From Raphidiopsis brookii D9 (GTDB lineage: Bacteria; Cyanobacteriota; Cyanobacteriia; Cyanobacteriales; Nostocaceae), in the NCBI GenBank assembly GCA_000175855.1, contig ACYB01000022.1:1-32000 (forward strand): DNA of 32,000 bases, written 5' to 3'. Every line of letters starts with the position of its first letter. Position 1 is the first letter of the stretch. Positions 3,410-32,000 of the stretch are shown piece after piece. Made by a program: the position numbers and the translations under genes. The notes beneath the pieces are model-generated. The model made no database searches and was not told the DNA's origin. It worked only from the letters and a program-made list of their open reading frames with translations.

Positions 3410-4198
3410 ATGTTACGGGACTTCGCTAATCGGGAAGAATTAGTAACTTATATACGGGAACAATTCCCTCAAGCTGCACAAACAGATGATTATATCAGTG
3501 GAATCCCTGGGGGTAGAAAAGCAGCAGAGGCACAACTAGAAAAGGTAAACACTGTATCGTACGCAAAAACACGCAACTACTTGACTGGAGCAGTAACTAG
3601 GTTATCACCCTATATTCGTCATGGCGTTTTGAGTTTGCGAGAAGTGAGGGAGTATATTCTTAACACAGTAGAAAATTCAGAAGATGGAAGCAAGTTAATT
3701 AATGAACTGGGATGGCGGGACTACTGGCAAAGATTATACATGAAGTTGGGCAAGGGTATTTGGGAAAATCAAGAAGAATACAAAACTGGTTATCACACAG
3801 AAGACTACTCCCATAACCTCCCAGAAGATATTCAGGAAAGTAAAACTGGACTGGTTTGCATTGATAGTTTTAGTCAAGAATTACGAGTGACAGGTTATCT
3901 CCACAATCATATCAGAATGTGGTTGGCAAGTTATATTATTCACTGGAGAAAAATTCAATGGCAAGCGGGAGCTAAATGGTTTTTGCAGCATTTGTTAGAT
4001 GGAGACCCAGCAAGTAATAATATGTCTTGGCAATGGGTGGCTAGTACTTTCAGTCACAAACCGTATTTCTTCAATCGAGAAAATCTAGAACGCTATACAA
4101 AAGGAGTATATTGTTCTCGATGTCCATTATATGGTAAGTGCGTGTTTGAAGGCACTTATGAAAATTTGCAATCGATCCTTTTTCCCCATTCCCCCTAA
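3410..4198 (+). CDS. Stand-alone photolyase/cryptochrome FAD-binding (alpha-helical) domain protein, lacking the N-terminal alpha/beta domain
   Basis: The 262-aa product carries GGRKAAEAQL...TRLSPYIRHGVLSLREV, GWRDYW and DGDPASNNMSWQWVAS, which are typical of the photolyase FAD-binding domain. Only 35 nt separate it from the divergent bcp start, so no N-terminal domain can be encoded upstream. Confidence 0.8.
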   Translation: MLRDFANREELVTYIREQFPQAAQTDDYISGIPGGRKAAEAQLEKVNTVSYAKTRNYLTGAVTRLSPYIRHGVLSLREVREYILNTVENSEDGSKLINELGWRDYWQRLYMKLGKGIWENQEEYKTGYHTEDYSHNLPEDIQESKTGLVCIDSFSQELRVTGYLHNHIRMWLASYIIHWRKIQWQAGAKWFLQHLLDGDPASNNMSWQWVASTFSHKPYFFNRENLERYTKGVYCSRCPLYGKCVFEGTYENLQSILFPHSP

Positions 4199-5019
4199 TC
4201 CAGGTTTAAAAACCTGTCCAGCGCTGCTACTAAACTTGGTGGCCATCTGCGGATATTTCTCACCCAGTTAATATCCTTATATCTGATGTCTAATCCGTAA
4301 GCTGCTACCCAGTTACTTTCTGCTTCCCCTTTTTTACCTCCTACCCAATAGGTAGCAGTCAAAGCAGCACGCATATCAGCAAATCGGGGATATTTACGCA
4401 CTATATTTCTCATTTCTCTTTCCGCTTGCTGTTTCTCACCAATTTCATACATGGCTAAAGCATAGTTCGCACGAGCAAAAGCAAAGTTAGGTGCTATTTG
4501 TGTGGCTTTTTGATAGTCGGCGATCGCCTCTTGCCATTTTCCTAGTCCTGTTTTAGCATTCCCTCGATTATTATATGCCATAGCATCTTGGGGGTCTAAT
4601 TCTAAAACATGATTATAATCAGCGATCGCCTCTTGCCATTTTCCCAATCCTTCTAAAGCTGTACCTCTATTTAGGTAAGGATCTGTCACATTGGGAGCTA
4701 ATTTAATGGCTTGATTATAATCGGTTAATGCTGCTTCCAGTTTATTTTGACTAACCCGGGAATTACCGCGATTACTCCATGCACCCGCATTGGTGGGGAA
4801 TCTCTCAATAATTTCAGTCCAGTATTTTTCAGCGGTGGCAAAATCACCTTTGTCAGTTGCAGCAAATGCTTGGGTTGCTAACTCATCTCCCAACTCTAAC
4901 TCTTGTGCTGTAATATGATTTGTTTCTGCCACTGCTGGTAAGCAATTACCTAGGGTTAGTAATAAGCTTACTAACAAAATTGTTAACAGACTCAAAATAG
5001 AATTCTTCTTCTTAGTCAT
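4195..5019 (-). CDS. Secreted/lipoprotein-like TPR repeat protein
   Basis: The N-terminus is a signal-like hydrophobic segment (MTKKKNSILSLLTILLVSLLLTLGNC). Several TPR units follow, including a duplicated GLGKWQEAIADY motif. Its 3' end overlaps the convergent upstream gene by 4 nt. Confidence 0.8.
   Translation of the reverse strand: MTKKKNSILSLLTILLVSLLLTLGNCLPAVAETNHITAQELELGDELATQAFAATDKGDFATAEKYWTEIIERFPTNAGAWSNRGNSRVSQNKLEAALTDYNQAIKLAPNVTDPYLNRGTALEGLGKWQEAIADYNHVLELDPQDAMAYNNRGNAKTGLGKWQEAIADYQKATQIAPNFAFARANYALAMYEIGEKQQAEREMRNIVRKYPRFADMRAALTATYWVGGKKGEAESNWVAAYGLDIRYKDINWVRNIRRWPPSLVAALDRFLNLD
4520..4527. repeat. HIP1 octamer GCGATCGC (representative of 19 copies)
   Basis: I found copies by eye starting at 4520, 4622, 6794, 7021, 7767, 8765, 9808, 10307, 12325, 14185, 14389, 14900, 16349, 18517, 20907, 24986, 27021, 27687 and 29203. 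HIP1 over-representation is a known cyanobacterial hallmark. Confidence 0.9.
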
Positions 5020-13896: not shown

Positions 13897-14775
13897 GTGC
13901 CGAAATACCTTGGTTTAATCTCTGTTTTGGTAGTTTGTGGTTTATGGAGTCTGCCCGATCCTGTTCAAGCGCAGGCACTTCTCCCGTATATTATACAACT
14001 TAATAGGGCAAATTTAGAAAAGCAAGGGTTAATACTAGCTCAGGAAGCAGCCCAACTGGCTCGATTTCAGCAGTTTGAGCTGGCTATACCCAGAGCTAAA
14101 ATGGCCGTGCAATTGGCACCAACAAATGATAAAGTATGGTTTTTGTTAAGTCAGTTACATGTACAAAGAAAGGATCTCCCAGAAGCGATCGCCTCTTTAA
14201 CACAAGCCCAAAAACTCAACCCCAATAATCCCGATATTTTATTTGCCCTAGGATCAGCTAATTTCCAACAGAAAAATTATCAACTTTCAGTAAAATACTA
14301 CCAATCAGGGTTAAAATTAAGACCAAATGATCCGGAAGGATTGTTTAATTTAGGTAATACCTATTACATGTTGGGTAGATTACCAGAAGCGATCGCCCAA
14401 CTCAACCAAGCTGCCAATAAAGACAAGAAATTTTGGCCAGCAGTTAATAACATTGGTCTAATTAAATACGAACAGGGAGACGTGAAGGGTGCCATTAAGG
14501 AATGGGAAAAAGCAATTGCCATAGACCAGAGAGCAGCGGAAGCTCTCTTAGCATTAGGAGTCGCTCTTTATACCCAGGGTCAAAAACAACAGGGCTTAAC
14601 CAAGGGAGAACAGGCCCTAAAAATAGATCAAAGGTATGCAGATCTTGACTTTCTCAAAGAAAATCTCTGGGGAACAAAGTTACTATTAGATGCTAAAAAG
14701 TTTTTAGAACTACCTCAGATTAGATCAGCTCTAGAACTGAAAGAAGAGACACTTAGACCAACAGATAACCAGTAA
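13897..14775 (+). CDS. Secreted TPR repeat protein
   Basis: It starts at GTG 13897 with a signal-like N-terminus (PKYLGLISVLVVCGLWSLPDPVQA). Multiple TPR units follow (e.g. LFALGSANFQQKNYQLSVKYYQSGLKLRPNDPEG). Confidence 0.8.
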   Translation: MPKYLGLISVLVVCGLWSLPDPVQAQALLPYIIQLNRANLEKQGLILAQEAAQLARFQQFELAIPRAKMAVQLAPTNDKVWFLLSQLHVQRKDLPEAIASLTQAQKLNPNNPDILFALGSANFQQKNYQLSVKYYQSGLKLRPNDPEGLFNLGNTYYMLGRLPEAIAQLNQAANKDKKFWPAVNNIGLIKYEQGDVKGAIKEWEKAIAIDQRAAEALLALGVALYTQGQKQQGLTKGEQALKIDQRYADLDFLKENLWGTKLLLDAKKFLELPQIRSALELKEETLRPTDNQ

Positions 14776-20261: not shown

Positions 20262-20406
20262 CCAAAATTGCTGTGCTTAACAACGTACTCAACTAATTTA
20301 TTCCCAGTTCAATCAAAAATCAACTTTCTGGAGTATCTTGCTAAATCTATGGGAGTACGCTATTCTCCAGAGCTTACCCAGCGTGCCACAGCCCGCCAAT
20401 ATGCTG

Positions 20407-20844
20407 CTAAAGGGATCTGATAAATTCCATAAACAACCAGATCACAATGGCTAAATGTAGTATAAAGGTTAACAAGGTCCAAATACAAGGTATCCAAAAC
20501 AGCATGGGACTTGAGGGCAAATAATAGGCACTTATACCAATCAAGAATGTAGGAAGCATGACAAAAGCTATTCCAGCTACAGCATAACCCCACCCCAACT
20601 CCATACCTTCTATTTGTCCCTGATCCCAATTATCACCATTCCAATGCCATATTAGGGGAGGTTGTCGGGAAGGCATTTTGACCTGCTGTGATTGTAAGTT
20701 GACCGTAAAAATCTCTTGACAAAAGTCACAAAACATTGCCTCCATTAAAGGCATAGTCTCAATTTTGCCAACGCGACAGGATGGACATGGGTATCTTTGA
20801 TTAAAATTTAAAGGTCTAGAGACAATTGGTAAATTCTTCATCAT
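20407..20844 (-). CDS. Hypothetical membrane protein with N-terminal zinc-ribbon-like motif
   Basis: CPSC...x17...CDFC (a four-Cys ribbon) is followed by hydrophobic helices (YAVAGIAFVMLPTFLIGISAYY; IPCIWTLLTFILHLAIVIWLF). Confidence 0.65.
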   Translation of the reverse strand: MMKNLPIVSRPLNFNQRYPCPSCRVGKIETMPLMEAMFCDFCQEIFTVNLQSQQVKMPSRQPPLIWHWNGDNWDQGQIEGMELGWGYAVAGIAFVMLPTFLIGISAYYLPSSPMLFWIPCIWTLLTFILHLAIVIWLFMEFIRSL

Positions 20845-20927
20845 ACGCCCTCACAAATTATTAACCACCCTATAGAGATCCCAATCTAACCAGGTCAATA
20901 GTAAATGCGATCGCCTGGAGTCCTCAG

Positions 20928-27954: not shown

Positions 27955-29403
27955 ATGATCATTAATGCTGAACTTCTCCTTCAATATCAACGGTGTAAAC
28001 GAAGATCTTTCTTGGATGTTCACGGCGATTATCAGCAACGTGATATTCCCCATGAGCTGTTGGTAAAAATGCAGCAAGACAAGATTACACATAGGGAAAG
28101 TGTGTTAGAACACTTAATCTACGATCAACCTGACTATCCCCCTCGAAACTGGGAAATGGGTGCAGCAGCAACTATTAGGTTAATGCAGCAGGGGGTTAAT
28201 ATGATCTACCGAGGAGTGTTGTTAGCAACTTACGAGGACAAGTATACCTTACTCAGTCGTCCGGATCTACTGGTTAAACAACCAGGGAAATCCAGTTTGG
28301 GAGATTGGTTATATGTACCCGTGGATATTCAACTAGGTAAACGTCCTAAACAAGAATATCAAGTGGTAGCTGCTTTTCACGCAGAAATTGTGGGAGCTTT
28401 ACAGGAGGTAATGTTAGCAGCATGTTGGCTAGTCTTACGCAGCAAGGAAACAATTTATGCCGTTGACTTGTATAAGTGGAGACCACAAATGTTAGATATT
28501 TTGGCGGACTATGTTCAGGTAATGAGTTCATCAGAAGCACCCGAAGTATTTATAGCTAGGCAAAAATGTAATCTTTGTCATTGGTACAATCATTGTTATA
28601 GTATTGCTCGAGAGCAGCAGCATCTTTCCTTATTACCGGGAGTGACACCAGTTCGTTATAATTATTTAAGAAGTAAATCTATTAATAGTTTAGACTTGCT
28701 TGCAAAAACCCAACCCAGTAGTTTAGAAAATGTCACTGGGTTTGATTATAAGATAGCGTGGAAGTTAGTAATACAGGCCCAGTCCACATTAAGACAAACC
28801 GCTTTAATACTACCCGAAACAGTGGTAAGAGGGAATCTAATATCTAATGTAGGCATTGAGCTATATTTTGATATTGAAGCTCAACCGGATTTAAATTTGA
28901 ATTATTTATTAGGGGTTTTAGTAGTTGATATAGAAAATAAGCAAGAAACATTTTATTCATTTTTAGCCACAAAACCCGAAGAAGAGGAATTAATTTGGCA
29001 GCAATTTGTGGATTTAGTTTGCCAATATCCCCATTCCCCCATTTATCACTTTTGTAATTATGAAGTAGAAACAGTAAATAAATTGGGGAAACTCTATGGC
29101 ACACCCGATAGTATAACTAGGATGATTCTCACTCGTTTTGTAGATATTTACGAGCAATTAATTGAAACCGTTGCTTTGCCAATAGAAAGTTATGCACTCA
29201 AAGCGATCGCCAATTGGTTAGGATTTACATGGCGAGATCCCAAAGCAAATGGTGCCAAATGTATTTATTGGTATGATCAATGGTTGGAAACAGGCGATCG
29301 GGAGTTTTTAAAAATGATTCAGGTTTACAATGAGGATGATTGTTATGCTACCCGTCGGGTGAAAGATTGGTTAGTTACCTTTACCAAAGATTTTTTGCTT
29401 TAA
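27955..29403 (+). CDS. TM0106-type RecB-like nuclease: Cas4-like PD-(D/E)XK/4-Cys domain plus C-terminal RNase H-like (DEDD-type) domain
   Basis: It has an N-terminal Cys (QRCKRRSFLD), RPDLL...VPVDIQLGK and CNLCHWYNHC (C-x2-C-x5-C). An HhH-like LLPGVTP...LRSKSINSLDLLA follows, then FDIE, HFCNYE and YNEDDC exonuclease-like motifs. Confidence 0.8.
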   Translation: MIINAELLLQYQRCKRRSFLDVHGDYQQRDIPHELLVKMQQDKITHRESVLEHLIYDQPDYPPRNWEMGAAATIRLMQQGVNMIYRGVLLATYEDKYTLLSRPDLLVKQPGKSSLGDWLYVPVDIQLGKRPKQEYQVVAAFHAEIVGALQEVMLAACWLVLRSKETIYAVDLYKWRPQMLDILADYVQVMSSSEAPEVFIARQKCNLCHWYNHCYSIAREQQHLSLLPGVTPVRYNYLRSKSINSLDLLAKTQPSSLENVTGFDYKIAWKLVIQAQSTLRQTALILPETVVRGNLISNVGIELYFDIEAQPDLNLNYLLGVLVVDIENKQETFYSFLATKPEEEELIWQQFVDLVCQYPHSPIYHFCNYEVETVNKLGKLYGTPDSITRMILTRFVDIYEQLIETVALPIESYALKAIANWLGFTWRDPKANGAKCIYWYDQWLETGDREFLKMIQVYNEDDCYATRRVKDWLVTFTKDFLL

Positions 29404-29895
29404 AGCTAAAGTGCGCGGTCGTCCGGTTGTCCCAGAAAAACCTAAACCTGCGCGGAATATTTCTGGAATATAAAATCTGGTAGCTTCATCCTTATCCTTA
29501 TCTTCATAAATTACACCTATTTCTTCCAACACTCTGATAGTATTCTGGTCAGCTTTTAAGTGGTTTACATCAAAGGGAATTTTCTTTTCTGGTAATGAAG
29601 GCAGTGTTTTTTCTACCCAGGTTTTGAACTGAGGATATTCTTCTTTGACTTCTTCGACTTTCTCTTGACTACAGGGTTGGAGTGCTTGACGAATTGCTTG
29701 AGGGGGTAGCAATCGGGTAGAAAACCATTTTGTTGAGGTTTCCTTTGAGGTATCCAATGTACGACTGGTGGCAAAATATAAAAAGCGAATTATATCTCTA
29801 GCTTGCAGATTGCCCTTAAAATCAGTTAACGCAGCGAATATCCAGGAAGCTGTATTGGCTTCCTTTGATTTATCAGAACCTAGCTTCTGTCCCCA
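29371..29895 (-). pseudogene. C-terminal continuation of the dual-NTPase gene in a shifted frame
   Basis: This frame opens immediately after the stop codon at 29896-29898. It reads WGQKLGSDKSKEANTASWIFAALTDFKGNLQARDIIRFLYFATS... with no ATG or GTG before the TTG at 29757 used by the ORF track. Deleting one A in AAATTAATGG joins ...ELQKL to WGQKLG... Confidence 0.6.
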
Positions 29896-32000
29896 TTAAT
29901 TTTTGTAATTCTCGCTTTAAATCTTCTGTACTTAAATCATAAATCCTGTTTTTGTCTGCATCTATGACCCCAGATTCGCTGCAAATCCAATAAACCAGAC
30001 GGAGAAATGAATCTCTATCCCAAAATAAATTATATGGAGAATAGCGATTTTCAAACTGTGCTAAATTTTGAGTAATTGTATGCTTAAGAAAGTCTCGGCG
30101 CAAGAATATAATGACCCCTATATTTGCTTTTCTAATTTCTGAAATCTTTGTGGGTACATCATCAATTAAAGCCTTTAAAGCTATCCTTTGTTGAGTATGG
30201 GTATAAATCTCTGGAAAAATATTTTCCAAACCATCAAAAAGAAATACAATATTTAATTTTCTTTCTTTTAATTCCCGGTCTATTGCCATGAGAGTACTAT
30301 GACCAATATCCAAATTAATATCGATTGACTTGGCAATAATCTTACTAATCCAAAATTCTGTCCATTTTAATTCATTCCAGTTTTCTTCTAGGGACTTTTT
30401 TAGGGAACTTTTAATTTCATCAGTGTAGTTTGAGTGGCTAAATTCCAACGTACTTTTCAAAGCTGATCGAACTTCGTTCCTGGCTTTGTCAATAATATTT
30501 TGAGCATCCCGTTCAACATACTGACTTTGAAGCAAAGGAAATATATAGGTTCTGTTTTTCGGTTCTTCATGATTTTGACTACCATCTACACGACGTAAAA
30601 AACTTTCCCAATTCCTAAGACGTGATAGATGTATATAATTAAAAGTCTTTCCCGATCCTTTAGCACCAATACATAAAACATTGGGTAATTTATCCGAGAA
30701 GTCACTTGCTAAATTTCGTAAGGGTTCTATAATCAGTAAATTTTCTCCTTTGCCAGTTTCTGCATATCGATATTTTTCACACAAGTCTCTGATTTTTTTC
30801 AAATCATCTAACTTCTTATTGAACAAATCTTCAGATAAAACCTCTTGATTATTAGCATTATCAGCAGTGATCAACTTTGTTTCTGCCCATTTTCTGGCAT
30901 TCTTCATTAATGTAGTTGCTGATAATCTTGATCGAGCTTCTTCCCAACTATTAACATAGAGTAGTTCTTCTGCAAAGAAAGCCTCAATAATTTCCAACCT
31001 TTTGCTATAAACATCTTCTGTATCTTCCGGTTGAATATAATTTTGGTAAAATTCATCCACGGCATTTTTATAACGGGGTGAATCTATGACTTCCTGCTTC
31101 AACATATTAATCAATAACCATGGATCATAATATTTTTCATGTTGTATATCCGATTGTGATGGTGCTACTTTACCGATTTGTTGTAAAACTAGATTAGTAC
31201 CACGAATAGACTGTTCACTAATGCTGGTAACAATAAACCTTTCAACTCTAGGATCAAAGATTATTGGGCTAGATATCTCACTTAGTCCAGCTCTTAAATC
31301 AATAAATACATAATTTATGTCAAGCTCTTGACCTAAAAGATTGATAGCATTACTGTACCCCCAAGCTCCATGAGCACCCCTAACTAAATGTTCTGGTAAG
31401 ATTGGTTTATCTAACAACTGTTGGTCATTTAAACAAGCAGGCAAAAAGTACACTTTTGATCGGTCTTCATTTATATGACTAGTTAAATTTTTTTTCAATT
31501 CTTTAGCAAATAATGATAGTGTCTGTTCTACGGGTAGGCGAGAATAATGATAAACTTCTAAAAAGTCCAGGAAACAAACTGCTGGATTCTTGACACCATT
31601 CCAATAGGTCAAACCTGGTGCTTCTAAATCAGCATCAATAACCAAGATATTTATTGGTTGATTTAATTGCTTAGATCTCTCCAGTAATGCCAAAAGATAG
31701 GCTACCAGATTTAAGGTTCTACCTACACCACCTTTAAAAGAATAGAAAGCTAATAATTCAGTTTTATTAATTTTTGTTTGAGTATATGGGTCTGGTAGAT
31801 TAATTGCACTCTTTTGAGAAGTCTCTATTTCTGGTAAGTAGGCAATTTCTTCCCAAAAGGGACGGGGCTCAATAGGATTAATCTCTATTTCCTCCGGTCC
31901 AGTAAATTCTACCGGTAACTTATCATCTCCCATATCAAGTTGAATTACCGATTCTTCTTCTAAATACCAATCACCAAACCACTGTTTGACAATACTTTTA
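29873..32000 (-). CDS. Dual-NTPase protein, major part: ParA/MinD-like ATPase with KGGVGR variant Walker A fused to a second P-loop NTPase (5' end may lie beyond the window)
   Basis: The first in-window ATG is 31933 (686 aa), but the frame stays open to nt 32000. Motifs are KGGVGRT (nt 31715-31735), ILVIDADLEAPGL, YVFIDLRAGLSE, GAKGSGKT (nt 30644-30667) and IVFLFDGLE (nt 30224-30250). The ORF ends at TGA-TAA at 29873. Confidence 0.75.
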   Translation of the reverse strand, partial: KSIVKQWFGDWYLEEESVIQLDMGDDKLPVEFTGPEEIEINPIEPRPFWEEIAYLPEIETSQKSAINLPDPYTQTKINKTELLAFYSFKGGVGRTLNLVAYLLALLERSKQLNQPINILVIDADLEAPGLTYWNGVKNPAVCFLDFLEVYHYSRLPVEQTLSLFAKELKKNLTSHINEDRSKVYFLPACLNDQQLLDKPILPEHLVRGAHGAWGYSNAINLLGQELDINYVFIDLRAGLSEISSPIIFDPRVERFIVTSISEQSIRGTNLVLQQIGKVAPSQSDIQHEKYYDPWLLINMLKQEVIDSPRYKNAVDEFYQNYIQPEDTEDVYSKRLEIIEAFFAEELLYVNSWEEARSRLSATTLMKNARKWAETKLITADNANNQEVLSEDLFNKKLDDLKKIRDLCEKYRYAETGKGENLLIIEPLRNLASDFSDKLPNVLCIGAKGSGKTFNYIHLSRLRNWESFLRRVDGSQNHEEPKNRTYIFPLLQSQYVERDAQNIIDKARNEVRSALKSTLEFSHSNYTDEIKSSLKKSLEENWNELKWTEFWISKIIAKSIDINLDIGHSTLMAIDRELKERKLNIVFLFDGLENIFPEIYTHTQQRIALKALIDDVPTKISEIRKANIGVIIFLRRDFLKHTITQNLAQFENRYSPYNLFWDRDSFLRLVYWICSESGVIDADKNRIYDLSTEDLKRELQKLMGTEARF

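What the first reader, a model, noticed from the sequence alone, without database searches (positions are those of the whole stretch)
29371..32000. Large dual-NTPase ORF (ParA/MinD-like domain with KGGVGR variant Walker A fused to a second P-loop NTPase) at the window edge: best candidate for an uncharacterised conflict/defence-type system
The minus-strand ORF 29873..31933 stays open upstream to nt 32000, so its true start and any upstream partners may lie outside the window.

Seen directly in the sequence:
- Residues 67-73 read KGGVGRT (nt 31715-31735). This is the deviant Walker A of ParA/MinD/Soj-type ATPases (KGGxGK[ST]), but with the P-loop Lys replaced by Arg. ILVIDADLEAPGL and YVFIDLRAGLSE follow, positioned like the ParA switch and Walker B strands.
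- A K/E/N-rich linker of about 150 aa follows.
- A second, canonical Walker A GAKGSGKT (aa 423-430) and a hhhhDGLE Walker-B-like strand IVFLFDGLE (aa 562-570) come next, followed by GVIIFLRRDF. This layout is reminiscent of STAND/NACHT- or KAP-like NTPases.
- About 175 further protein-like codons continue in another frame to 29371.

I recognised no nuclease, protease, TIR or other effector motif in the visible part, and no in-window neighbour looks like a partner. The gene sits in an AT-rich island. A dimerising ParA-like switch fused to a STAND-like NTPase fits poorly characterised prokaryotic conflict systems better than housekeeping. I recall a database family name 'KGGVGR-motif variant AAA ATPase' but know of no experimentally defined function.
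Basis: partly seen in the sequence, partly recalled or inferred. Interest (0 to 1): 0.72.

Follow-up and report, generated by a model that had tools for sequence, protein, structure and literature searches.

The report
ParA-like/STAND-like ATPase, candidate defence gene
This is a real, widely conserved but untested double-ATPase gene of Raphidiopsis brookii D9; it normally pairs with a small partner gene that lies just beyond the window edge, and the pair looks more like a phage-conflict module than a housekeeping gene.

Summary
Every motif sits at the stated coordinates. The two frames are one gene (called c0 here), CRD_01282 of Raphidiopsis brookii D9, split by one extra base at nt 29896. 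Intact orthologues are about 925 aa, and the start codon lies 149 nt beyond the window.

The N-terminal half meets NCBIfam NF047398 (KGGVGR-motif ATPase, 146 bits) and has a MinD/FlhG-like fold. The C-terminal half resembles the Sll1717-family P-loop ATPase, below cutoff, with an ORC/STAND-like fold.

The missing partner (called c1 here) exists. It is a ~146-aa gene with a weak HEPN-like fold that sits directly upstream in 38 of 42 related loci, and in D9 itself (CRD_01283).

The pair resembles PADLOC's untested three-gene candidate PDC-M28, with its B and C genes fused.

- **For a conflict role:** there are ~50%-identical copies across phyla. GC is about 6 points below the flanks nearly everywhere. 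The partner was lost repeatedly in Cylindrospermopsis. Mic1-like cyanophages carry a truncated copy with a dead P-loop.
- **Against a conflict role:** the position is stable beside recG in Nostocaceae, the sequence is strongly conserved, the neighbours are mostly housekeeping genes, and there is no canonical effector motif.

The frameshift may be a 454 sequencing artefact. Function is untested, so interest is moderate.

The parts
29897..32000 (-). c0 coding sequence, first reading frame: residues 51 to about 751 of a ~925-aa protein. The first 50 codons and the ATG lie outside the window, at window-equivalent 32149.
   Evidence: The exact product from the true start to the premature stop is P0254, CRD_01282 of R. 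brookii D9, 758 aa. L094 overlaps window 31937-32000 at 100% and extends it.
29896..29896 (.). One extra base (TT instead of T on the + strand) that shifts the frame and creates a stop at 29873-29875.
   Evidence: Alignment with L001 and L002. Whole-region comparison. Homopolymer context. The near-identical strain L002 (99.93%) lacks it. D9 was sequenced with 454 GS20 at 27x.
29371..29895 (-). c0 coding sequence, second frame: the C-terminal 174 residues plus the stop. This region is helical with a predicted winged-helix-like end and a basic tail.
   Evidence: NF047389 profile positions 307-415 and PDC-M28C. Colinear with the intact 925-aa orthologue. Secondary structure from the model.
31163..31759 (-). 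ParA/MinD-like 'KGGVGR' ATPase domain (ORF aa 59-253). KGGVGRT is at 31715-31735, the DxD switch strand at 31610-31648 and the Walker B strand at 31277-31312.
   Evidence: NF047398 at 146 bits, cutoff 90. Motif coordinates. Foldseek FlhG 4rz2, FleN 5j1j and HypB 5auq, probability 1.0, TM about 0.5. Invariant columns.
29990..30682 (-). Core of the second, canonical P-loop ATPase (Sll1717-like, AAA+/STAND-like). Walker A GAKGSGKT is at 30644-30667, Walker B IVFLFDGLE at 30224-30250 and the sensor-like strand GVIIFLRRDF at 30089-30118.
   Evidence: NF047389 (32 bits here, 57 bits for the intact orthologue, cutoff 75). PDC-M28C. pLDDT is 80-92 in this region. Foldseek ORC2 1w5t, ORC/Cdc6, p97 and EfAvs5, all weak. 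Motif counts.
29371..29403 (.). 33-nt convergent overlap of the 3' ends of c0 and the RecB-like (TM0106 family) nuclease gene 27955..29403 (+).
   Evidence: This adjacency is confined to the Raphidiopsis/Cylindrospermopsis clade.
29160..29382 (+). The 3' end of the RecB-like gene. In CENA303-type strains a 97%-identical second copy of these 223 nt lies just upstream of c0, where the partner gene should be. This marks a rearrangement breakpoint.
   Evidence: L094 against L001 shows that only the last 63 nt of the partner survive in CENA303.
30086..30785 (.). SNP-rich tract inside c0: 17 substitutions in 700 nt against CENA303, compared with 1-3 per kb in the flanking genes.

Best explanation
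The ORF is the large subunit (c0) of a two-gene, NTP-driven conflict module, most likely anti-phage. The module is a gene-fused relative of PADLOC's candidate system PDC-M28.

**What is shown.** c0 has five parts:
- a small N-terminal alpha/beta domain;
- a ParA/MinD-fold domain that keeps the signature Lys, the DxD strand and the Walker B Asp, but whose P-loop Lys is invariably Arg;
- a conserved helical region;
- a canonical AAA+/STAND-like ATPase of the Sll1717 type, with intact Walker A and Walker B;
- a helical, winged-helix-like tail.

A ~146-aa all-alpha protein with a beta-hairpin (c1, weakly HEPN-like) is encoded immediately upstream. It often overlaps c0 by 4 nt. In strain D9 it lies at window-equivalent 32166-32639.

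**What is inferred.**
- The KGGVGR domain binds ATP and dimerises but hydrolyses poorly. It acts as a latch or scaffold, not as a positioning motor.
- The C-terminal ATPase is the working switch. It oligomerises on an infection cue.
- c1 is the effector or adaptor that the switch releases or activates, which arrests the infected cell.
- Mic1-like cyanophages counter the system with a truncated copy of the ATPase core that has a dead P-loop.

**This copy.** In this window the gene is either intact (the extra base being a 454 error) or very recently disrupted.
For: **Family and fold.**
- NF047398 is met, and there are NF047389 and PDC-M28B/C matches.
- c1 weakly matches PDC-M28A, with the same length and gene order.
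- Fold matches are MinD-like plus ORC/STAND-like.
- The top PDB matches of c1 are all HEPN proteins. The model has pLDDT 93.8.

**Partnership.**
- c1 is upstream in 38 of 42 loci. An analogous small gene is upstream in 24 of 24 paralogue loci.
- The two genes overlap by 4 nt in some loci.
- D9 itself has c1.

**Signs of mobility.**
- Orthologues 45-52% identical occur in Cyanobacteria, cable bacteria, Syntrophobacteraceae, Desulfatiglandales and Parabeggiatoa. Orthologues 30-35% identical occur in seven more lineages.
- c0 GC is below its flanks in 38 of 39 loci, on average by 0.059. In Terrabacter it is 0.57 against 0.74.

**Dispensability.**
- c1 was lost twice independently in Cylindrospermopsis.
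- One strain carries a GAA-to-TAA nonsense mutation in c0.

**Phage link.**
- Mic1 gp05 is 41% identical to c0 aa 481-704.
- Four relatives occur in IMG/VR. All have a destroyed Walker A but keep Walker B and the sensor strand.
- gp05 is 67-69% identical between these phages, while the flanking phage genes are 93-96% identical.

**Precedent.** Inactive MinD/ParA-like domains, some fused to AP-ATPases, occur in conflict systems of multicellular prokaryotes (PMC7159879).
Against: - No experiment exists. PDC-M28 is an unpublished, untested candidate, and no paper on KGGVGR or Sll1717 was found.
- In Nostocaceae the pair sits at one conserved site after rpsB-tsf-x-recG, and the paralogue sits after groES-groEL.
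- The protein is strongly conserved: mean column identity is 66-69% and dN/dS is 0.22-0.37. There is no hypervariable sensor region.
- Neighbours outside Nostocaceae are mostly housekeeping genes. Only about 3 of 91 are defence-like ATPases, and none of the 25 most frequent Pfam families among them is a transposase or integrase.
- c1 lacks the Rx4-6H HEPN motif and has no Pfam match. Its HEPN fold matches are weak (E 0.15-0.9).
- The family is rare on plasmids. Only Ralstonia megaplasmids carry it.
Confidence: 0.5

Rival explanations
1. The pair has a cellular, non-immune function. It could be a ParA-like organiser with a small partner protein that positions or regulates a structure important in filamentous or multicellular bacteria.
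For: - Synteny after recG, and after groESL for the paralogue, is stable across Nostocaceae genera.
- The sequence is highly conserved and under purifying selection, even where c1 is lost.
- Many hosts are filamentous or gliding: Nostocales, Oscillatoriales, cable bacteria, Parabeggiatoa, Polyangiaceae and Caldilinea.
- A ParA-like ATPase with a small adjacent partner resembles known positioning systems. This comparison rests on my own knowledge.
Against: - The P-loop Lys-to-Arg change is invariant. In other P-loop NTPases this change usually blocks hydrolysis, which a ParA-type positioning cycle needs. This point rests on my own knowledge.
- The distribution is patchy across phyla and GC is consistently lower than the host's.
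- The partner is deleted, and c0 carries a nonsense mutation, in otherwise viable Cylindrospermopsis strains.
- A phage lineage keeps a crippled copy.
- It also occurs in unicellular Microcystis, Crocosphaera, Ralstonia and Terrabacter.
Confidence: 0.2
2. In this genome the gene is a true pseudogene. The extra base is real, and D9 makes only a 758-aa product that lacks the C-terminal 167 residues, so nothing functional is left here whatever the family does.
For: - The deposited annotation ends at the premature stop (P0254, 758 aa).
- Independent inactivation happens in the clade: a nonsense mutation in LUBZ01000006.1 and two separate losses of c1.
- R. brookii D9 has a reduced genome (PMC2821919).
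Against: - The only two indels between D9 and CENA303 in 14 kb are both one-base homopolymer-length differences inside ORFs.
- D9 was assembled from 454 GS20 reads at 27x with few Sanger reads.
- A strain 99.93% identical over 8.6 kb lacks the extra base.
- After correction the downstream frame has no further defects and is identical in protein to CENA303.
Confidence: 0.4
3. The pair is a selfish addiction (toxin-antitoxin-like) or mobile-element maintenance module. It persists by post-segregational killing and not by defending the host.
For: - It is a two-gene, translationally coupled cassette with a small HEPN-like protein.
- It shows horizontal spread and low GC.
- In one lineage a VapC/PIN gene sits between recG and the pair.
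Against: - c0 survives under purifying selection without c1 in several strains, so neither gene behaves as an antidote the other needs.
- No integrase, transposase or plasmid context was found.
- At 925 aa with two ATPases, it is far more complex than known toxin-antitoxin pairs.
Confidence: 0.1

Closest known systems
PADLOC candidate system PDC-M28 (genes A, B, C), an unpublished and untested 'phage defence candidate'
   Same: - The order of parts is the same: a small ~138-aa protein (A), a KGGVGR ParA-like ATPase (B) and an Sll1717-like P-loop ATPase (C).
- c0 matches B (E 1e-10) and C (E 3e-12).
- One c1 orthologue matches A weakly (E 0.011).
   Different: - Here B and C are one 925-aa polypeptide.
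- The matches are partial and weak for A.
- The candidate itself has no demonstrated function.
NCBIfam NF047398 'KGGVGR-motif variant AAA ATPase' (domain) and NF047389 'P-loop ATPase, Sll1717 family'
   Same: - NF047398 is met at 146 bits, well above the cutoff of 90.
- NF047389 aligns over profile positions 31-392 of 454 with the C-terminal half.
   Different: - NF047389 scores 57 bits for the intact orthologue, below its cutoff of 75, so this is a related but distinct subfamily.
- Both NCBIfam models are names without a known function.
ParA/MinD/FlhG/FleN deviant-Walker-A ATPases (SIMIBI class)
   Same: - The fold matches: Foldseek probability 1.0 and TM about 0.5 to FlhG 4rz2, FleN 5j1j and HypB 5auq.
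- The signature Lys, the DxD strand and the Walker B Asp are conserved.
   Different: - The P-loop Lys is invariably Arg.
- No Pfam ParA, CbiA or AAA_31 match reaches threshold (14 bits against 27).
- It is fused to a second ATPase.
- It has no ParB-, MinE- or McdB-like partner.
Inactive MinD/ParA-like domains in vWA-MoxR (VMAP) and AP-ATPase conflict systems of multicellular prokaryotes (Kaur et al. 2020, PMC7159879)
   Same: A MinD/ParA-like domain predicted to be catalytically impaired is joined to a STAND-type ATPase. The host range is enriched in multicellular bacteria.
   Different: - No vWA, MoxR, effector-associated or peptidase components are present here.
- I did not test whether the domains are orthologous.
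- Apart from Lys-to-Arg, the nucleotide-binding residues are conserved here.
STAND / ORC-Cdc6-type AAA+ switch ATPases (e.g. Avs proteins)
   Same: - It has Walker A GxxGxGKT, an hhhhDGLE(D) Walker B, a following Arg-rich strand and a helical plus winged-helix-like tail.
- Weak Foldseek matches are ORC2 1w5t, ORC/Cdc6 and EfAvs5 9jap.
   Different: - There are no C-terminal repeat sensors (TPR, WD40 or LRR) and no fused nuclease, protease, TIR or SIR2 effector.
- Structural matches are weak (E 0.01-0.03, low TM).
- There is no sequence-level match to any solved structure.
HEPN domain proteins (for the partner c1, outside the window)
   Same: - The five best PDB fold matches come from four entries, all HEPN proteins (1ufb, 2hsb, 1wol, 4nqf).
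- Some databases name orthologues 'HEPN domain-containing'.
   Different: - E-values are 0.15-0.9 and TM is 0.38-0.5.
- There is no Rx4-6H motif and no Pfam match.
- It has an inserted beta-hairpin.

Membership tests
NCBIfam NF047398 (KGGVGR-motif variant AAA ATPase domain) | Score at or above the curated cutoff of 90 bits | tested here: met
   146 bits, aa 59-253 of the window ORF against profile 3-189 of 190. 146.5 bits for the intact orthologue.
NCBIfam NF047398 (KGGVGR-motif variant AAA ATPase domain) | KGGVGR in place of KGGxGK[ST] | tested here: met
   KGGVGRT at nt 31715-31735. Exact in 38 of 39 relatives and 23 of 24 paralogues, the other having KGGVGRS.
NCBIfam NF047389 (P-loop ATPase, Sll1717 family) | Score at or above the curated cutoff of 75 bits | tested here: not met
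   32.3 and 24.4 bits for the two window fragments. 57 bits for the intact CENA303 orthologue. It is related but below the cutoff.
ParA/MinD/Soj family | Deviant Walker A KGGxxK[ST] with both lysines | tested here: not met
   The second Lys is Arg, invariantly.
ParA/MinD/Soj family | Pfam ParA/CbiA/AAA_31-type model above the gathering score | tested here: not met
   The best match is AAA_31 at 14.2 bits against a cutoff of 27, then VirC1 at 11.4 bits.
ParA/MinD/Soj family | MinD-like fold | tested here: met
   Foldseek FlhG 4rz2, FleN 5j1j/7ejw and HypB 5auq with probability 1.0 and TM (target) 0.50-0.54. The model pLDDT in this domain is only 60-85.
ParA/MinD/Soj family | Adjacent ParB/MinE/McdB-type partner or centromere-like site | tested here: not met
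   The only conserved neighbour is c1, which matches no such family. Centromere-like repeats were not searched for.
PADLOC PDC-M28 candidate system | Proteins matching models A, B and C encoded together | tested here: inconclusive
   B at E 1.1e-10 and C at 1.3e-8 in the window. C at 3.2e-12 for the intact orthologue. A at only E 0.011, and in one of three c1 orthologues tested.
PADLOC PDC-M28 candidate system | B and C as separate genes | tested here: not met
   They form one ~925-aa polypeptide in all full-length relatives.
PADLOC PDC-M28 candidate system | Demonstrated anti-phage activity | not testable with these tools
   PDC systems are described as unpublished candidates (PMC11811056). 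No paper mentions PDC-M28.
STAND NTPases (NACHT / AP-ATPase / Avs) | Walker A, hhhhD[GD]xxE-type Walker B, and a winged-helix after the NTPase | tested here: inconclusive
   The motifs are present and conserved. Fold matches to ORC/Cdc6 and EfAvs5 are weak (E 0.01-0.03). There is no Pfam NACHT or NB-ARC match.
STAND NTPases (NACHT / AP-ATPase / Avs) | C-terminal repeat sensor and N-terminal effector domain | tested here: not met
   There are no TPR, WD40, LRR or effector Pfam matches. The C-terminal 170 aa are helical with a short hairpin.
HEPN superfamily (partner c1) | Rx4-6H catalytic motif | tested here: not met
   In a 25-sequence alignment the invariant polar residues are R31, E39, K43, H66, N69, R101, N109 and R113. 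No Arg is followed by His at 4-6 residues.
HEPN superfamily (partner c1) | HEPN four-helix fold | tested here: inconclusive

The most novel reading that the evidence does not exclude
c1-c0 is a previously uncharacterised, widespread immune module of cyanobacteria and other, mostly multicellular, bacteria. In it, a ParA-fold domain locked in the ATP-bound state by an invariant Lys-to-Arg change acts as a dimerisation latch on a STAND-like ATPase. That ATPase controls a non-canonical HEPN-like effector. Mic1-like cyanophages neutralise the system with a truncated decoy of the ATPase core that has a dead P-loop. This would be a new anti-defence strategy based on a captured fragment of the host system.
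Probability: 0.25. Interest if true: 0.75.

Novelty: new variant of a known kind. Interest (0 to 1): 0.5.

Why it matters
- **If it is a defence system:** it would add a new mechanistic class. The class would be a hydrolysis-impaired ParA-like latch, a STAND-like switch and a small HEPN-like protein.
- **Reach:** the system would be common in bloom-forming and toxic cyanobacteria such as Raphidiopsis, Cylindrospermopsis, Dolichospermum, Aphanizomenon, Microcystis and Planktothrix. Phage resistance shapes bloom dynamics in these organisms.
- **A natural inhibitor:** the phage-encoded truncated copy gives a ready-made inhibitor to test.
- **If it is a cellular organiser instead:** it would be an unrecognised conserved function shared by filamentous bacteria of several phyla.
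- **For this window specifically:** the practical result is an annotation fix. CRD_01282 and the ORF downstream of it are one gene, paired with CRD_01283, and the frame break needs re-sequencing.

Tried and rejected
- **RecB-like nuclease as partner:** rejected. No homologue lies within 7 kb of c0 in 66 other loci.
- **c0 as a mobile cassette inserted into the RecB-like gene.** I first read the 223-nt direct repeat in CENA303 this way. I rejected it because NIES-932, D9/SRR24999971 and a JGI contig have FtsH-c1-c0-RecB without the duplication. The repeat marks a later rearrangement that removed c1.
- **D9 lacks the partner.** I first assumed this by analogy with CENA303. It is wrong: CRD_01283 is the partner.
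- **Programmed frameshift:** rejected. All relatives have one continuous ORF.
- **Neutral decay of partner-less copies:** not supported. dN/dS is 0.22-0.37.
- **Sequence-level links to solved structures:** none found for c0 or c1.
- **Pfam matches:** none significant for c0 or c1.
- **Homology of c1 with the paralogue's partner:** only weak (hhalign probability 56%).
- **Informative domain fusions of c1:** none. The 150 best of 557 cluster representatives are nearly all stand-alone proteins of about 140 aa.
- **Defence-island or mobile-element context:** not found.
- **Literature on KGGVGR, Sll1717 and PDC-M28:** nothing relevant.

Full report
**Names used here.** The large gene is called c0. 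Its small upstream partner is called c1.

**1.

The minus-strand ORF 29873..31933 (686 aa from its first ATG) exists and stays open to nt 32000.

| Motif | Residues | Coordinates |
|---|---|---|
| KGGVGRT | aa 67-73 | nt 31715-31735 |
| ILVIDADLEAPGL | aa 96-108 | |
| YVFIDLRAGLSE | aa 208-219 | |
| GAKGSGKT | aa 423-430 | nt 30644-30667 |
| IVFLFDGLE | aa 562-570 | |
| GVIIFLRRDF | aa 606-615 | |

The roughly 175 codons in another frame are the C-terminus of the same protein.
- NCBIfam NF047389 aligns profile positions 31-270 to the first frame and 307-415 to the second.
- The gene in C. raciborskii CENA303 (L001) is a continuous 925-aa ORF.

**2. Source, true ends and the frame break**

The product from the true start to the premature stop is identical to P0254. 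That is CRD_01282 of Raphidiopsis brookii D9, 758 aa, so the window comes from D9.

A contig from a near-identical strain (L094) overlaps window 31937-32000 at 100% and extends it.
- The c0 start codon lies at window-equivalent 32149, so 50 codons are missing from the window.
- A 157-aa gene lies at window-equivalent 32166-32639.
- ftsH follows beyond that.

The frame break is one extra base: TT at 29896-29897 against a single T in CENA303 and in L002. L002 is 99.93% identical to the window over 8.6 kb.

The only other indel between D9 and CENA303 in 14 kb is also a one-base homopolymer difference inside an ORF (20424). D9 was assembled from 454 GS20 reads at 27x with few Sanger reads (PMC2821919). 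I therefore rate a sequencing artefact as somewhat more likely than a true pseudogene. I cannot decide between them.

**3. What the protein is**

Pfam gives nothing significant. No solved structure is related by sequence.

NCBIfam results:
- Residues 59-253 fall in NF047398, 'KGGVGR-motif variant AAA ATPase', at 146 bits against a cutoff of 90.
- The C-terminal half is related to NF047389, 'P-loop ATPase, Sll1717 family'. The intact orthologue scores 57 bits against a cutoff of 75.

An AlphaFold model of the 92%-identical R. curvata protein has mean pLDDT 70.5, rising to 80-92 in the second ATPase core. Foldseek places the domains as follows:
- The N-terminal ATPase matches the MinD-like proteins FlhG, FleN, HypB and NifH with probability 1.0.
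- The C-terminal ATPase matches ORC/Cdc6, p97 and a STAND protein, weakly.

In alignments of 20-30 orthologues, mean column identity is 66-69%. Invariant features include FYSFKGGVGRT, the DxD strand, the Walker B Asp, GxKGxGKT, DGLE and RRDF.
- KGGVGRT is exact in 38 of 39 full-length relatives down to about 29% identity.
- In a 23%-identical paralogous family, 23 of 24 have KGGVGRT and the other has KGGVGRS.

The 'linker' between the two ATPases is mostly a conserved helical region, not a low-complexity spacer.

**4. The partner gene**

A genome scan found 532 relatives. I clustered the neighbouring ORFs in 42 loci.
- A co-oriented gene of about 146 aa (c1) abuts or overlaps c0 in 38 of the 42 loci.
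- In two looked-up loci the overlap is 4 nt.
- The paralogous family has an analogous small upstream gene in 24 of 24 loci.

D9 has c1 as CRD_01283 (P0271).

What c1 looks like:
- It has no Pfam or NCBIfam match.
- One orthologue weakly matches PADLOC PDC-M28A (E 0.011).
- Its model is confident (pLDDT 93.8).
- Its five best PDB matches come from four HEPN entries, but weakly (E 0.15-0.9, TM 0.38-0.5).
- It lacks the Rx4-6H motif. Its invariant polar residues are R31, E39, K43, H66, N69, R101, N109 and R113.
- The 150 best of 557 cluster representatives are nearly all stand-alone proteins of about 140 aa, so fusions give no clue.

**5. Relation to known systems**

c0 matches PADLOC's PDC-M28B (E 1e-10) and PDC-M28C (E 3e-12). 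With c1 similar to A, the pair has the gene order of PDC-M28, with B and C fused.

PDC systems are unpublished, untested candidates (PMC11811056). No paper mentions PDC-M28, KGGVGR or Sll1717.

Kaur et al. (PMC7159879) describe predicted-inactive MinD/ParA-like domains in conflict systems of multicellular prokaryotes. Some of these are fused to AP-ATPases. This is the closest published concept.

**6. Evidence for a conflict role**

*Distribution.*
- Orthologues 45-52% identical occur in Cyanobacteria, cable bacteria, Syntrophobacteraceae, Desulfatiglandales and Parabeggiatoa.
- Orthologues 30-35% identical occur in Ralstonia, Alteromonadaceae, Symbiobacteriaceae, Terrabacter, Polyangiaceae, Acidobacteriaceae and Omnitrophota.

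*Composition.* c0 has lower GC than its flanks in 38 of 39 loci, by 0.059 on average. Examples are Terrabacter (0.57 against 0.74) and Electronema (0.48 against 0.59).

*Dispensability within Raphidiopsis/Cylindrospermopsis.*
- NIES-932, D9 and SRR24999971 keep c1.
- A JGI contig has a 409-nt deletion that fuses 26 codons of c1 to c0.
- CENA303-type strains lost all but 63 nt of c1. The loss came from a rearrangement that left a 223-nt duplicate of the RecB-like 3' end.
- One strain has a GAA-to-TAA nonsense codon in c0.

*Phage link.*
- Microcystis phage Mic1 gp05, annotated 'ParA family protein', is 41% identical to c0 residues 481-704.
- Four Mic1-like IMG/VR contigs carry it too.
- All five have a destroyed Walker A (GEDVAKKT, GEGVAENT or GADVAEYT) but keep IIILIDGLENIF and LIVFLHRDSL.
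- Between these phages the flanking genes are 93-96% identical and gp05 is only 67-69% identical.
- A retained ATPase core with a dead P-loop is what a dominant-negative decoy would look like. This is an inference.

**7. Evidence against a conflict role**

- In Nostocaceae the pair sits at one conserved site after rpsB-tsf-x-recG. The paralogue sits after groES-groEL.
- The protein is highly conserved and under purifying selection. dN/dS is 0.22-0.37, including partner-less copies.
- Among 91 neighbours in non-syntenic loci, only about three are defence-like ATPases. The rest are ordinary genes, and none of the 25 most frequent Pfam families among them is an integrase or transposase.
- Plasmids rarely carry it.
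- No canonical effector motif is present.
- The RecB-like nuclease next door is not a partner. It is absent near 66 other loci.

**8. Most likely mechanism (inferred)**

- **Latch:** the ParA-fold domain keeps its nucleotide-binding residues and the trans-acting signature Lys, but has Arg for the P-loop Lys. In other P-loop NTPases this change usually allows binding and impairs hydrolysis (my own knowledge). I therefore read it as an ATP-dependent dimerisation latch.
- **Switch:** the C-terminal ATPase, with intact Walker A and Walker B, is the working switch.
- **Effector or adaptor:** c1 is the effector or adaptor.
- **Confidence:** about 0.5 that the pair is a conflict or defence module, and about 0.2 that it has a cellular organising function. 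The remainder is unknown or a selfish element.

**9. Verdict**

The gene is a member of a computationally catalogued but functionally unknown family. It is a fused, two-gene variant of a PADLOC candidate system.

The window's copy may be intact. The new information here is the partner gene, the correction of the D9 annotation, the decay pattern within the clade and the phage-borne truncated copy. Interest is moderate.

Noticed in passing
L091:4031-4651 (Microcystis phage Mic1, MN013189.1 8171-8791); L095-L098 around 3941-4519: Mic1-like cyanophages carry a conserved, truncated copy of the c0 ATPase core. Its Walker A is destroyed, but its Walker B and sensor strand are intact. It diverges much faster (67-69% identity) than the flanking phage genes (93-96%). 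It may be a decoy or anti-system protein.
   Followed up: partly
window 20371-20902 (ORF 20407..20844, minus strand): This is a second SNP hot spot against C. raciborskii CENA303: 23 substitutions in about 530 nt, compared with 1-3 per kb elsewhere. It also holds the only other indel (20424, TT against TTT), which changes the C-terminus of a 145/160-aa protein with no Pfam match.
   Followed up: no
L001:14233-14559 and 14274-14496 (C. raciborskii CENA303); also L092 and L093: In CENA303-type strains a 223-nt, 97%-identical duplicate of the RecB-like gene's 3' end (window 29160-29382) replaces the partner gene upstream of c0. It is followed by a TMEM175 gene instead of ftsH. This is a genome rearrangement breakpoint.
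   Followed up: partly
L093:2856-2858 (C. raciborskii LUBZ01000006.1): A GAA-to-TAA nonsense mutation splits c0 into 673-aa and 243-aa ORFs. The gene is otherwise identical to that of strain GCA_026929835.1.
   Followed up: yes
L056-L080 (e.g. L057:9674-12421): A paralogous family, about 23% identical, has the same two-gene layout and the KGGVGR[TS] motif in all 24 loci. In Nostocaceae it sits directly after groES-groEL, so many cyanobacteria carry two such pairs.
   Followed up: partly
c1 residues 90-125 (e.g. L094:6175-6648, window-equivalent 32166-32639): The beta-hairpin plus the 'NQMWRYGG' segment of the partner weakly resembles the Sac7d/Sso7d DNA-binding proteins (KKVWRVGK; E 0.1-0.5). 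This is probably chance.
   Followed up: no
L085:2858-3722: In one Nostocales lineage a small PIN (VapC) cassette is inserted between recG and the c1-c0 pair. This suggests the site accepts accessory genes.
   Followed up: no
L081:6751-7023 (R. curvata NIES-932): A 90-aa fragment of a DNA cytosine methyltransferase (PF00145) lies between ftsH and c1. It could be a remnant of a restriction-modification system beside the pair.
   Followed up: no
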